Assembly (NCBI RefSeq): GCF_017348835.2
Contig: NZ_CP071375.1
DNA: 64,000 nt
Direction: 5' to 3' (one strand)
DNA from: Escherichia coli
GTDB lineage: Bacteria; Pseudomonadota; Gammaproteobacteria; Enterobacterales; Enterobacteriaceae
This document shows positions 21,301-24,300 of the stretch, in pieces (the stretch's first letter is position 1; every line of letters starts with the position of its first letter). A program made the position numbers.

Positions 21301-24300
21301 GTCACGCTACCTCTTCTGAAGCCTGTCTGTCACTCCCTTCGCAGTGTATCATTCTGTTTAACGAGACTGTTTAAACGGAAAAATCTTGATGAATACTTTA
21401 CGTATTGGCTTAGTTTCCATCTCTGATCGCGCATCCAGCGGCGTTTATCAGGATAAAGGCATCCCAGCGCTGGAAGAATGGCTGACATCGGCGCTAACCA
21501 CGCCGTTTGAACTGGAAACCCACTTAATCCCCGATGAGCAGGCGATCATCGAGCAAACGTTGTGTGAGCTGGTGGATGAAATGAGTTGCCATCTGGTGCT
21601 CACCACGGGCGGAACTGGCCCGGCGCGTCGTGACGTAACGCCCGATGCGACGCTGGCAGTAGCGGACCGCGAGATGCCTGGCTTTGGTGAACAGATGCGC
21701 CAGATCAGCCTGCATTTTGTACCAACCGCGATCCTTTCGCGTCAGGTGGGCGTGATTCGCAAACAGGCGCTGATCCTTAACTTACCCGGTCAGCCGAAGT
21801 CTATTAAAGAGACGCTGGAAGGTGTGAAGGACGCAGAGGGTAACGTTGTGGTACACGGTATTTTTGCCAGCGTACCGTACTGCATTCAGTTGCTGGAAGG
21901 GCCATACGTTGAAACGGCACCAGAAGTGGTTGCTGCATTCAGACCGAAGAGTGCAAGACGCGACGTTAGCGAATAAAAAAATCCCCCCGAGCGGGGGGAT
22001 CTCAAAACAATTAGTGGGATTCACCAATCGGCAGAACGGTGCGACCAAACTGCTCGTTCAGTACTTCACCCATCGCCAGATAGATTGCGCTGGCACCGCA
22101 GATCAGACCAATCCAGCCGGCAAAGTGGATGATTGCGGCGTTACCGGCAATGTTACCGATCGCCAGCAGGGCAAACAGCACGGTCAGGCTAAAGAAAACG
22201 AATTGCAGAACGCGTGCGCCTTTCAGCGTGCCGAAGAACATAAACAGCGTAAATACGCCCCACAGACCCAGGTAGACACCAAGGAACTGTGCATTTGGCG
22301 CATCGGTCAGACCCAGTTTCGGCATCAGCAGAATCGCAACCAGCGTCAGCCAGAAAGAACCGTAAGAGGTGAATGCGGTTAAACCGAAAGTGTTGCCTTT
22401 TTTGTACTCCAGCAGACCAGCAAAAATTTGCGCGATGCCGCCGTAGAAAATGCCCATGGCAAGAATAATACCGTCCAGAGCGAAATAACCCACGTTGTGC
22501 AGGTTAAGCAGAATGGTGGTCATGCCGAAGCCCATCAGGCCCAGCGGTGCCGGATTAGCCAACTTAGTGTTGCCCATAATTCCTCAAAAATCATCATCGA
22601 ATGAATGGTGAAATAATTTCCCTGAATAACTGTAGTGTTTTCAGGGCGCGGCATAATAATCAGCCAGTGGGGCAGTGTCTACGATCTTTTGAGGGGAAAA
22701 TGAAAATTTTCCCCGGTTTCCGGTATCAGACCTGAGTGGCGCTAACCATCCGGCGCAGGCAGGCGATTTGCAGCACTGCTGGAATCGTTACGCGATAGGC
22801 GCTGCCGCTGACCGCTTTAACCCCATTTAATGCTGCGCCCACAGGGCCTCCCAGACCCGCGCCGCGCAGCAAACCATGCCCAAGCACGCTCATTGCTGCG
22901 TGGGTGCGTAAAATGCGGGTCAGTTGGCTGGAAAGCAGATGCGACACGCCTTTTGCCAATAATTTGTCTTTCATCAGCAGCGGCAGCAGCTCTTCCAGCT
23001 CATTCACCCTGGCATCGACCGCGTGCAGAAACTCCTGCTTATGTTCCTCGTCCATTTTCTTCCAGGTATTACGCAGAAATTGTTCCAGTAACTGTTGCTC
23101 AATTTCAAACGTAGACATCTCTTTGTCGGCTTTCAGCTTCAATCGTTTTGAAACATCGAGCAAAATGGCCCGATACAATTTACCGTGTCCGCGCAGTTTG
23201 TTGGCGATACTATCGCCACCAAAATGCTGTAATTCTCCAGCAATCAGCTGCCAGTTGCGGCGATGTTGCTCGGGATGCCCTTCCATCGATTTAAACAGTT
23301 CGTTGCGCATCAGTACGCTGGAGAGGCGAGTTTTGCCTTTTTCATTATGGGTGAGCAGCCGGGCGAAATTTGCTAACTGTTCCTCACTACAATGCTGGAG
23401 AAAATCCAGATCTGAATCATTCAGGTAATTAACATTCATTTTTTGTGGCTTCTATATTCTGGCGTTAGTCGTCGCCGATAATTTTCAGCGTGGCCATATC
23501 CGATGAGTTCACCGTATGACCGGAAAAGGTGATTTTTGAGACGCAGCGTTTATTGTCGTTATCGCTGTTAATGTTGATCCAGTCAGTGGTTTGCCCTTCT
23601 TTTATTTCTGAAGGAATATTCAGGCTCTGACTGGCGCTACGGGCGGCTTTGAAATAAACCGATGCACCGCTTAACTGTAAATCGCCATGGTCGGCAGAGA
23701 GTTGTATGCGTTTCACAATGCGACAAACAGGAAGTTTCAGCGCCAGATCGTTGGTTTCGTTACGCGGCATTGCAATGACGCCGAGGAGTTTATGGTCGTT
23801 TGCCTGCGCCGTGCAGCACAGCATCAGGCTAATCGCCAGGCTGGCGGAAATCGTAAAAACGGATTTCATAAGGATTCTCTTAGTGGGAAGAGGTAGGGGG
23901 ATGAATACCCACTAGTTTACTGCTGATAAAGAGAAGATTCAGGCACGTAATCTTTTCTTTTTATTACAATTTTTTGATGAATGCCTTGGCTGCGATTCAT
24001 TCTTTATATGAATAAAATTGCTGTCAATTTTACGTCTTGTCCTGCCATATCGCGAAATTTCTGCGCAAAAGCACAAAAAATTTTTGCATCTCCCCCTTGA
24101 TGACGTGGGTTACGACCCCATTTAGTAGTCAACCGCAGTGAGTGAGTCTGCAAAAAAATGAAATTGGGCAGTTGAAACCAGACGTTTCGCCCCTATTACA
24201 GACTCACAACCACATGATGACCGAATATATAGTGGAGACGTTTAGATGGGTAAAATAATTGGTATCGACCTGGGTACTACCAACTCTTGTGTAGCGATTA

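What the first reader, a model, noticed from the sequence alone, without database searches (positions are those of the whole stretch)
22904..23428. Long Ser-rich ORF antisense to yaaW (position of the disputed htgA/mbiA overlapping gene)
A 174-aa plus-strand ORF (MRKMRVSWLESRCDTPFANNLSFISSGSSSSSSFTLASTACRNSCLCSSS...) lies entirely within yaaW on the opposite strand. An open antisense frame this long is unusual. The locus has been discussed in the literature as a possible recently evolved overlapping gene, but its coding status is unsettled.
Basis: partly seen in the sequence, partly recalled or inferred. Interest (0 to 1): 0.3.

Follow-up and report, generated by a model that had tools for sequence, protein, structure and literature searches.

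The report
Known disputed antisense ORF mbiA/htgA
This is the long open reading frame on the strand opposite the E. coli gene yaaW, already catalogued in strain K-12 as mbiA (formerly htgA); its length and serine-rich sequence follow from yaaW's own sequence, and comparing strains shows no sign that evolution protects it as a protein, so it is most likely a by-product and not a new finding.

Summary
The ORF is real: 22904..23428 (+), GTG start, 174 codons, wholly inside yaaW (22726..23439, -), with third codon positions of both frames facing each other. It is the same locus as K-12 mbiA/b0012 (htgA/htpY). The K-12 start corresponds to ATG 22913. K-12 has TGA where the window has TGG (23396-98), so the window allele is 10 codons longer.

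The length is not unusual. The window holds 12 antisense ORFs of at least 150 aa. Synonymous reshuffling of yaaW gives an ORF this long in 9-21% of trials.

The frame is open only in Escherichia. Salmonella, Citrobacter, Kluyvera and Pseudescherichia have 3-8 stops. Within E. coli the 3' end is polymorphic (174, 164 and 148 codons), and at least 32% of 5,426 complete genomes carry one of two premature stops.

In 22 Escherichia sequences, substitutions silent in yaaW change the ORF's amino acid as often as neutrality predicts (32/106; omega about 1.2, CI 0.8-1.9). The mirror class, silent in the ORF but altering YaaW, is depleted (7/81, P=1.5e-4).

The product has no family, no confident fold and no homologues outside this locus. 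No sigma-32 or strong sigma-70 promoter lies upstream.

Verdict: an already known, disputed ORF, most likely a passive by-product of yaaW.

The parts
22904..23428 (+). The ORF as reported: GTG to TAA, 174 codons. [quoted passage not shown]
22913..23428 (+). The same frame from ATG 22913, which is the K-12 mbiA start (171 codons). This is the only start candidate conserved in all 22 Escherichia sequences, and it has a modest SD-like GGGTG upstream (-3.9 kcal/mol).
22726..23439 (-). yaaW, the host ('mother') gene, 237 aa. It carries Pfam Ubiq_cyt_C_chap and DUF3944 and is under strong purifying selection. The YaaW protein is identical to K-12's despite 17 nucleotide differences.
23396..23398 (+). 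TGG (Trp165 of the ORF) in the window, TGA in K-12 and in at least 1,500 of 5,426 complete E. coli genomes. The change is a silent CTC/CTT (Leu14) change in yaaW.
23348..23350 (+). TGG (Trp149) in the window, TGA in 3 of 18 sampled E. coli, in E. albertii, and in at least 248 complete genomes. The change is a silent ACC/ACT (Thr30) change in yaaW.
22796..22798 (+). In-frame TAG that closes the open frame upstream. It is present (as TAG or TAA) in all 22 Escherichia sequences.
22976..23002 (+). The Ser run (SSGSSSSSS). It lies opposite the yaaW codons for residues 146-155, NELEELLPLL. In this frame Glu/Asp codons (GAN) read as Ser (TCN) and Leu CTN codons read as AGN (Ser/Arg).
   Evidence: genetic code

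Best explanation
The feature is the E. coli ORF catalogued as mbiA (b0012; earlier htgA/htpY). I read it as a 'shadow' ORF, meaning a passive by-product of the yaaW coding sequence on the other strand, and not as a gene maintained for its protein.

How the frame stays open: the ORF sits in the antisense frame whose third codon positions face yaaW's third positions. A stop here arises only where a yaaW Tyr codon follows a codon ending in T or C, or where a His/Gln codon follows a codon ending in T. YaaW is poor in Tyr, and its His/Gln residues mostly follow Glu, Gln, Lys or Trp. Few stops are therefore possible. Only 7 single-base changes that are silent in yaaW can create one inside the ORF.

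Why it looks conserved: ORF codon positions 1 and 2 face yaaW positions 2 and 1. Purifying selection on YaaW therefore freezes most of the ORF's amino acids, which mimics conservation.

Why it is Ser/Cys/Arg-rich: this composition is the mechanical antisense reading of YaaW's Glu, Leu, Gln and His codons.

Shown here: identity with mbiA, the frame geometry, the chance expectation, the restriction to Escherichia, the nonsense polymorphisms, and neutral evolution at the sites yaaW leaves free. Inferred: the product, if made at all, has no selected function. Low-level transcription or translation is not excluded.
For: Identity and geometry.

Length expected: P(ORF of at least 174 aa) is 0.09-0.21 in synonymous shuffles, and the window holds 12 antisense ORFs of at least 150 aa.

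Distribution: the frame is open only in Escherichia. Salmonella, Citrobacter, Kluyvera, Pseudescherichia and two unnamed enterobacteria have 3-8 stops.

Nonsense polymorphism: length classes are 174, 164 and 148 codons in 10, 5 and 3 of 18 E. coli. Exact 51-mers carrying the two TGA alleles occur in 1,500 and 248 of 5,426 complete genomes. Stop-gain events observed: 2, against 0.6 expected (E. coli) and 2.5 expected (Escherichia).

No protein-level constraint: among yaaW-silent substitutions, 32/106 change the ORF residue against 0.26 expected. Omega is 1.23 (95% CI 0.79-1.88), and omega of 0.5 or less is rejected at P<5e-5. The result is the same in the first 148 codons (24/83 against 0.25). 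In the mirror test, 7/81 ORF-silent substitutions alter YaaW against 0.25 expected (P=1.5e-4). ORF-only changes number 32 and YaaW-only changes 7 at equal mutational opportunity (P=7e-5).

No extra constraint on yaaW: its synonymous rate in the overlapped part is 0.55 per site, against 0.36 in the neighbouring genes.

No family, fold or homologue: no Pfam or NCBIfam match. AF2 mean pLDDT is 28. Among 5.8 billion clusters there is one genuine cluster of 14 E. coli members.

Composition is generic to the frame: Ser is 16% in the same antisense frame of 49 other genes, against 5.7% in their real products.

Signals: no strict sigma-70 and no sigma-32-like promoter lies upstream on the + strand.

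Annotation and literature: PGAP annotates no gene here in any of the 11 RefSeq strains inspected. One paper notes that conservation in this frame can be an artefact of selection on the mother gene (PMC4182739). Delaye et al. concede the same. In the EDL933 survey, the ORF's coordinates are absent from the tables of 864 transcribed and 216 translated antisense ORFs.
Against: Wet-lab reports favour a gene, but I could not read them here. Missiakas et al. 1993 reported cloning, Northern blots, protein labelling and promoter mapping for htgA/htpY, as summarised by Delaye et al.. Fellner et al. 2014 is cited as demonstrating a phenotype for strand-specific mutants.

An intragenic promoter in htgA/yaaW was reported active in vitro, orientation not stated (PMC2731890).

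K-12 RefSeq currently carries mbiA as a CDS.

ATG 22913 and a modest SD are conserved across Escherichia. These bases are also constrained by yaaW.

No stop occurs in the first 148 codons in any of 22 Escherichia sequences. Only 5 single-step silent stop opportunities exist there, so this carries little weight.

Limits of my selection test: it covers only sites that yaaW leaves free, which are mostly third-position and often conservative changes. It counts alleles per site without a tree, and it rests on 22 sequences. A very young gene under weak or conditional selection would escape it.
Confidence: 0.72

Rival explanations
1. MbiA is a genuine, very young (Escherichia-specific) protein-coding gene created by overprinting inside yaaW. 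On this reading it is translated from ATG 22913 and has a modest physiological role, modulating biofilm or stress response as the literature claims.
For: K-12 RefSeq carries it as a CDS.

ATG 22913 and a -3.9 kcal/mol SD are conserved.

The frame is open for at least 148 codons in all 22 Escherichia sequences and closed in other genera.

The published claims are expression data from 1993 and a mutant phenotype from 2014, as cited. Delaye et al. also report slower yaaW evolution where the ORF exists.
Against: No purifying selection is detectable on the ORF's residues: omega is 1.2, and 0.5 or less is rejected.

Two nonsense alleles occur in at least 32% of complete genomes.

The ORF's length is expected by chance.

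yaaW's synonymous rate is not reduced in the overlap.

The product has no fold, family or homologue.

No sigma-32 or good sigma-70 promoter lies upstream, and sigma-32 induction was not reproduced.

The ORF is absent from the EDL933 lists of transcribed and translated antisense ORFs.
Confidence: 0.14
2. The + strand of this region is transcribed as a non-coding antisense RNA. It affects yaaW/yaaI expression by transcriptional interference or RNA duplex formation. The ORF is irrelevant, and the phenotypes reported for 'htgA' mutants act through the RNA or through yaaW.
For: An intragenic promoter in htgA/yaaW was reported active in vitro (PMC2731890).

Northern signals were reported in 1993, as summarised.

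Neutral evolution of the ORF's protein sequence is compatible with a non-coding role.
Against: No strict promoter-like site lies upstream on the + strand; the best hexamer pairs score 8 of 12.

No Rfam family matches.

yaaW's synonymous sites in the overlap carry no extra conservation.

The ORF is not in the list of 864 transcribed antisense ORFs of EDL933.
Confidence: 0.1

Closest known systems
mbiA (b0012; formerly htgA / htpY) of E. coli K-12 MG1655, protein YP_009518733.1
   Same: Same locus, strand and frame, inside yaaW between satP and yaaI/dnaK, with the same ATG (K-12 10830 corresponds to window 22913). The products differ by two residues, R12K and S152N, numbered from GTG 22904.
   Different: K-12 has TGA at the codon that is TGG in the window (23396-98). 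K-12 MbiA is therefore 161 aa, and the window allele runs 10 codons further (171 aa from the ATG, 174 from the GTG). The window form is the one annotated in E. coli O55:H7 CB9615.
Long antisense 'shadow' ORFs in the frame whose third codon positions face those of the host gene (123/213 phase, called frame -2 in PMC4182739)
   Same: The ORF is open because of the host gene's amino-acid and codon content. It is apparently conserved because the host's positions 1 and 2 face its own positions 2 and 1. Its composition is Ser/Arg/Cys-rich. It evolves neutrally at the sites the host leaves free.
   Different: It covers an unusually large share of its host: 209 of 237 codons are stop-free, the highest of 50 genes in the window. 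Unlike most shadow ORFs, it has a history of experimental claims.
Experimentally supported antisense overlapping genes of E. coli O157:H7 (nog1/citC, pop/ompA, ano, laoB, asa)
   Same: All are embedded antisense ORFs restricted to Escherichia, proposed to have arisen by overprinting.
   Different: Those were found from RNA-seq and ribosome-profiling signals. This ORF does not appear in the same group's lists of transcribed or translated antisense ORFs, and here it shows no selection on its protein sequence.

Membership tests
mbiA/htgA (b0012) locus of E. coli | ORF on the strand opposite yaaW, fully embedded, in the frame with third positions facing, between satP and yaaI/dnaK | tested here: met
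   K-12 annotation. Coordinates map with an offset of 12083, and the frame was checked base by base. Synteny mog-satP-yaaW-yaaI-dnaK holds.
mbiA/htgA (b0012) locus of E. coli | Near-identical product sequence | tested here: met
   Two residue differences plus a read-through of the K-12 stop. The 174-aa form is 100% identical to a named E. coli protein cluster.
Functional protein-coding (overlapping) gene | Purifying selection on the encoded residues that selection on the host gene cannot explain | tested here: not met
   Among yaaW-silent substitutions, 32/106 alter the ORF against 0.26 expected. Omega is 1.23 (CI 0.79-1.88). The mirror test on YaaW is significant (P=1.5e-4).
Functional protein-coding (overlapping) gene | Reading frame kept intact across the clade that has it | tested here: inconclusive
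   The first 148 codons are open in 22 of 22 Escherichia sequences. The 3' end is truncated by two common nonsense alleles. Stop-gain counts match the neutral expectation.
Functional protein-coding (overlapping) gene | ORF longer than expected from the host gene's sequence | tested here: not met
   P = 0.09-0.21 in 20,000 synonymous shuffles.
Functional protein-coding (overlapping) gene | Promoter and ribosome-binding site | tested here: inconclusive
   No strict sigma-70 site lies upstream on the + strand, only 8-of-12 matches. ATG 22913 has an SD of -3.9 kcal/mol, which about 20% of random ATG/GTG positions match.
Functional protein-coding (overlapping) gene | Transcript and protein detected in vivo | not testable with these tools
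   The literature conflicts. Positive reports date from 1993 and 2014. The ORF is absent from the EDL933 RNA-seq and Ribo-seq candidate tables.
Functional protein-coding (overlapping) gene | Recognisable family, fold or homologues | tested here: not met
   Pfam and NCBIfam give no match. AF2 pLDDT is 28 from a single sequence, which is weak evidence. The only genuine cluster comes from this locus.
Sigma-32 heat-shock regulon member (original htgA/htpY claim) | Sigma-32 promoter (CTTGAA, 13-17 nt, CCCCAT) upstream | tested here: not met
   No exact match in the window. No match with up to 2 mismatches per element in 22560-22915. The literature reports no induction by sigma-32.
Shadow ORF (by-product of the host gene) | Composition predicted by the antisense reading of the host's codons | tested here: met
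   Ser is 24.6% and Cys 9.4% here. The same frame of 49 other genes gives 16.2% and 3.4%, and real proteins give 5.7% and 1.3%. The Ser run lies opposite NELEELLPLL.
Shadow ORF (by-product of the host gene) | No added constraint on the host gene's synonymous sites | tested here: met
   0.55 synonymous events per site in the overlap, 0.75 in the rest of yaaW (P=0.16), and 0.36 in mog, satP and yaaI.

The most novel reading that the evidence does not exclude
MbiA could be a de novo protein caught at birth. On this reading it is translated from ATG 22913 at low level, with a real but weak or condition-specific effect (for example on biofilm). It would be too young for sequence constraint to show, and the natural 174-, 164- and 148-codon alleles would be functional variants. 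Even if true, this has already been proposed in print (Delaye 2008; Fellner 2014).
Probability: 0.12. Interest if true: 0.45.

Novelty: already known. Interest (0 to 1): 0.12.

Why it matters
htgA/mbiA is repeatedly cited as a textbook case of a bacterial gene born by overprinting. The analysis here separates the two frames: 32 ORF-only changes against 7 YaaW-only changes at equal opportunity, plus common nonsense alleles in thousands of genomes. This gives a clear, reproducible argument that the locus evolves as one gene (yaaW) plus a passenger frame. That is a caution for lists of 'verified' overlapping genes and for the K-12 annotation. It opens no new biology. The practical by-product is an annotation error worth reporting: RefSeq labels yaaW as 'msyB' in thousands of genomes.

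Tried and rejected
1. The metagenome scan with a degenerate yaaW pattern gave only 7 contigs. I built the population sample mainly from 10 spread RefSeq hits instead.

2. The primary experimental papers (Fellner 2014, Missiakas 1993) are not in the library. Their content is cited only second-hand.

3. A word-start literature search for 'mbiA'/'htpY' returned unrelated papers.

4. The protein database hits P0002-P0004 looked like distant homologues. On inspection they are frame-shifted or chimeric translations of this same locus from error-prone assemblies. I rejected them as evidence of homologues.

5. I first thought O157 strains lacked the upstream stop, which would explain the 208-aa ORF in the EDL933 tables. 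That was wrong. The TAG is present in all sequences, and the longer ORF comes from counting CTG 22802 as a start.

6. The AF2 prediction without an alignment gave pLDDT 28. This is uninformative beyond 'no confident fold', so no fold search was run.

7. The Rfam scan of 21000-25000 found nothing relevant.

8. E. fergusonii and Shigella were not retrieved or are not in the collections used. The edge of the ORF's distribution within the genus is therefore only partly mapped.
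Full report
**1. What is there**

The ORF listing reports a + strand ORF at 22904..23428 with a GTG start and 174 aa. It lies entirely inside a 237-aa ORF on the minus strand at 22726..23439.

The window is E. coli. The region 22600-23600 is 100% identical to strain PE164 and matches 5,424 of 5,426 complete E. coli genomes at 97.7% identity or more.

In K-12 MG1655 the minus-strand gene is yaaW (b0011, 10643..11356). An embedded + strand CDS is annotated as mbiA (b0012, 10830..11315, 'uncharacterized protein MbiA'). The window-to-K-12 offset is 12083, so K-12 mbiA maps to window 22913..23398 in the same frame.

- It starts three codons earlier, at a GTG.
- It ends ten codons later, because the window has TGG at 23396-98 where K-12 has TGA.

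Third codon positions of the two frames face each other. ORF positions 1, 2 and 3 face yaaW positions 2, 1 and 3. Delaye et al. call this the 123/213 phase (PMC2268670). The stop-free run is 209 codons, 22799..23425, closed upstream by TAG 22796-98.

**2. Is the length more than chance?**

I took a crude set of 50 long ORFs in the window as genes. Eleven of them carry 12 antisense ORFs of at least 150 aa. Examples are 354 aa opposite dnaK and 403 aa opposite the 938-aa ORF at 38878-41694. In absolute terms 174 aa is ordinary.

As a share of its host gene it is the extreme case: 0.88 is stop-free, against a median of 0.26 for this frame.

I then kept the YaaW protein fixed and either permuted its own synonymous codons or resampled them from the window's codon usage, 20,000 trials each. 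An ORF of at least 174 aa in this frame arose in 21% and 9% of trials. A run of at least 209 codons arose in 10.5% and 5.7%.

The reason is structural. A stop in this frame needs a Tyr codon after a codon ending in T or C, or a His/Gln codon after a codon ending in T. YaaW has three Tyr. Most of its 23 His/Gln follow Glu, Gln, Lys or Trp codons, which cannot end in T. Only seven single-base changes that are silent in yaaW can create a stop inside the ORF.

**3. Composition**

The product is 24.6% Ser, 9.9% Arg and 9.4% Cys. The same antisense frame of 49 other genes in the window gives 16.2% Ser and 3.4% Cys. Their real products give 5.7% and 1.3%.

The Ser run at 22976-23002 lies opposite the yaaW codons for NELEELLPLL. 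In this frame GAN (Glu/Asp) reads as TCN (Ser), CTN (Leu) reads as AGN (Ser/Arg), and CAN (His/Gln) reads as TGN (Cys/Trp/stop). The Ser-rich character follows from the host gene and is not a protein feature in its own right.

**4. Distribution**

A scan of species-representative genomes with YaaW returned 17 loci.
- The frame is open in E. coli and in two unnamed Escherichia lineages (L003, L004).
- In E. albertii a TGA ends it at codon 149.
- Salmonella enterica, three Citrobacter, four Kluyvera, Pseudescherichia vulneris and two unnamed enterobacteria have 3-8 stops in the frame.

This reproduces Delaye et al.'s distribution.

**5. Variation within E. coli**

I sampled 18 E. coli sequences: the window, K-12, PE164, 10 RefSeq genomes taken at even steps down the identity ranking, and 5 of the 7 metagenome contigs. 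The ORF has three lengths from GTG 22904:
- 174 codons in 10 sequences.
- 164 codons in 5 sequences (TGA at 23396-98).
- 148 codons in 3 sequences (TGA at 23348-50, the same site as in E. albertii).

Both stops are silent third-position changes in yaaW: Leu14 CTC>CTT and Thr30 ACC>ACT.

Exact 51-mers carrying each allele were counted in the 5,426 complete genomes:
- 2,101 carry the window TGG type.
- 1,500 carry the K-12 TGA type.
- 248 carry the Trp149 stop type.

At least 32% therefore carry a premature stop relative to the window allele. These are lower bounds, because other haplotypes of the 51-mers are not counted.

GTG 22904 is GTC in L004 and GTA in E. albertii. ATG 22913 is invariant.

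**6. Selection**

Ordinary dN/dS on this frame is uninformative, because purifying selection on YaaW freezes the ORF's first and second positions. Delaye et al. concede this, and PMC4182739 makes the point generally.

I therefore conditioned on the host gene. In 22 Escherichia sequences, 106 substitutions in the ORF region are synonymous in yaaW. Of these, 32 (0.30) change the ORF's residue or create a stop, against 0.26 expected from mutational opportunity with kappa 2.6. This gives omega 1.23 (95% CI 0.79-1.88). Omega of 0.5 or less is rejected at P<5e-5, and 0.7 or less at P=0.006.

In E. coli alone the figure is 8/27 against 0.26.

Restricting the test to the first 148 codons gives 24/83 against 0.25.

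The same statistic on the same antisense frame of mog, satP, yaaI and the 5' part of dnaK gives observed fractions of 0.11-0.35 against expected 0.21-0.31. The one deviation is a deficit for mog in the genus-wide set (0.11 against 0.21, P=0.019), so the test is roughly calibrated.

The mirror test uses the same sites and geometry. Of 81 substitutions synonymous in the ORF, only 7 alter YaaW, against 0.25 expected (P=1.5e-4).

Mutational opportunity is nearly equal for the two one-sided classes (7.0% and 6.8% of mutations). ORF-only changes number 32 and YaaW-only changes number 7 (P=7e-5).

Stop-gain events number 2, against 0.6 expected (E. coli) and 2.5 expected (Escherichia).

yaaW's synonymous rate in the overlapped part is 0.55 events per site. 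This is not lower than in the rest of yaaW (0.75, P=0.16) and is higher than in the neighbouring genes (0.36). I see no sign of the extra constraint that a second coding frame should impose.

Caveats:
- Substitutions were counted as alleles per site, without a tree.
- The sample is 22 sequences.
- The test sees only sites that yaaW leaves free.

**7. Expression signals and protein features**

The strict sigma-70 scan finds no + strand site upstream of the ORF. The two + strand consensus matches lie downstream of it. A lenient scan gives only 8-of-12 hexamer pairs.

No sigma-32-like promoter is present. This fits the report that sigma-32 does not induce htgA.

GTG 22904 has no SD (+1.3 kcal/mol). 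ATG 22913 has -3.9 kcal/mol, near the median of the window's genes, but about 20% of random ATG/GTG positions do as well.

The product matches no Pfam or NCBIfam model. AlphaFold2 from the single sequence gives mean pLDDT 28 with no secondary structure. [quoted passage not shown] The other three hits are frame-shifted or chimeric translations of this same locus.

No Rfam family matches the region.

PGAP annotates nothing on this strand in any of the 11 RefSeq genomes inspected.

YaaW, by contrast, has Ubiq_cyt_C_chap and DUF3944 domains and a nonsynonymous-to-synonymous rate ratio of about 0.04.

**8. Literature**

Delaye et al. 2008 proposed htgA as a gene born by overprinting in the E. coli/Shigella lineage. 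They called its existence controversial. They noted a changed start codon: yaaW nucleotides 632 and 527, which map to window 22808 (a CTG) and 22913 (the ATG). They also noted a truncated copy.

A 2012 paper states that htgA was removed from the annotated genome because of conflicting data. K-12 RefSeq now carries it again as mbiA.

Fellner et al. 2014 is cited as showing a phenotype. I could not read that paper or Missiakas et al. 1993.

In the same group's EDL933 survey, the ORF (10736..11362, 208 aa counted from a CTG) appears only in the table of ORFs with BLAST hits to annotated proteins. Its coordinates do not occur in the complete tables of 864 transcribed and 216 translated antisense ORFs. 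This is soft negative evidence from a preprint's supplements.

An intragenic promoter in htgA/yaaW was reported active in vitro, orientation not stated.

**9. Conclusion**

The evidence available here points to a passive shadow ORF of yaaW: length expected from the host sequence, restriction to one genus, common nonsense alleles, neutral change wherever yaaW allows it, and no family, fold or clear signals. I put this at about 0.72.

A young functional gene (about 0.14) or a non-coding antisense RNA (about 0.10) cannot be excluded without expression data.

Novelty: already known. Interest: low.

Noticed in passing
window 22726-23439 (-), yaaW; RefSeq loci L002, L027-L036: RefSeq/PGAP labels this gene 'msyB: acidic protein MsyB' in essentially all non-K-12 complete E. 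coli genomes listed. The name comes from NCBIfam NF007593 ('acidic protein MsyB'), which matches YaaW end to end at 520 bits. The real MsyB (K-12 b1051, 124 aa) matches a different model, NF008544. It is also unrelated to YaaW (BLASTP E=2.5). This looks like a misnamed model propagating a wrong gene name.
   Followed up: yes
window 24246-26162, 38878-41694, 47267-50488, 26221-27381 and others: Much longer antisense ORFs than the reported one lie opposite other genes in the window. They are 354 aa and 181 aa opposite dnaK, 403 aa opposite the 938-aa ORF, 367 aa opposite the 1073-aa ORF, and 238 aa opposite the ORF after dnaK. Most are in the codon-for-codon antisense frame.
   Followed up: partly
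hit H30, NZ_CP180600.1 (strain PS2Canimalfeces12): An IS1-like element interrupts the yaaW region in this genome. PGAP then calls two fragments, 'ubiquinol-cytochrome C chaperone family protein' and 'DUF3944 domain-containing protein'. This is a natural knockout of both yaaW and the antisense ORF.
   Followed up: no
L003 (NZ_JAATUR010000005.1, 'Escherichia coli strain SCPM-O-B-8794') and metagenome contig L026: These are only about 92% identical to the window across satP-yaaW-yaaI, as distant as Escherichia sp. E1V33. Ordinary E. coli are 97.7% or more. The record labelled E. coli probably belongs to another Escherichia lineage.
   Followed up: no
P0002, P0004 (protein database entries); P0003: These database 'proteins' resemble MbiA, but they are mosaics that switch between reading frames of this same E. 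coli locus, or chimeras with an unrelated N-terminus. They presumably come from indel-rich or chimeric assemblies.
   Followed up: partly
window 22693-22714: A perfect 9-bp hairpin, GGGGAAAAT-GAAA-ATTTTCCCC, lies in the satP-yaaW intergenic region, 12 nt past the yaaW stop. No T-run follows it on either strand, and the terminator scan did not flag it.
   Followed up: no
window 22726-23439 compared with 21386-22577 and 23465-23869: yaaW has a higher synonymous substitution density (0.61 events per synonymous site in 16 sequences) than its neighbours mog (0.37), satP (0.25) and yaaI (0.50). yaaI has a noticeably high nonsynonymous-to-synonymous ratio (0.13).
   Followed up: no
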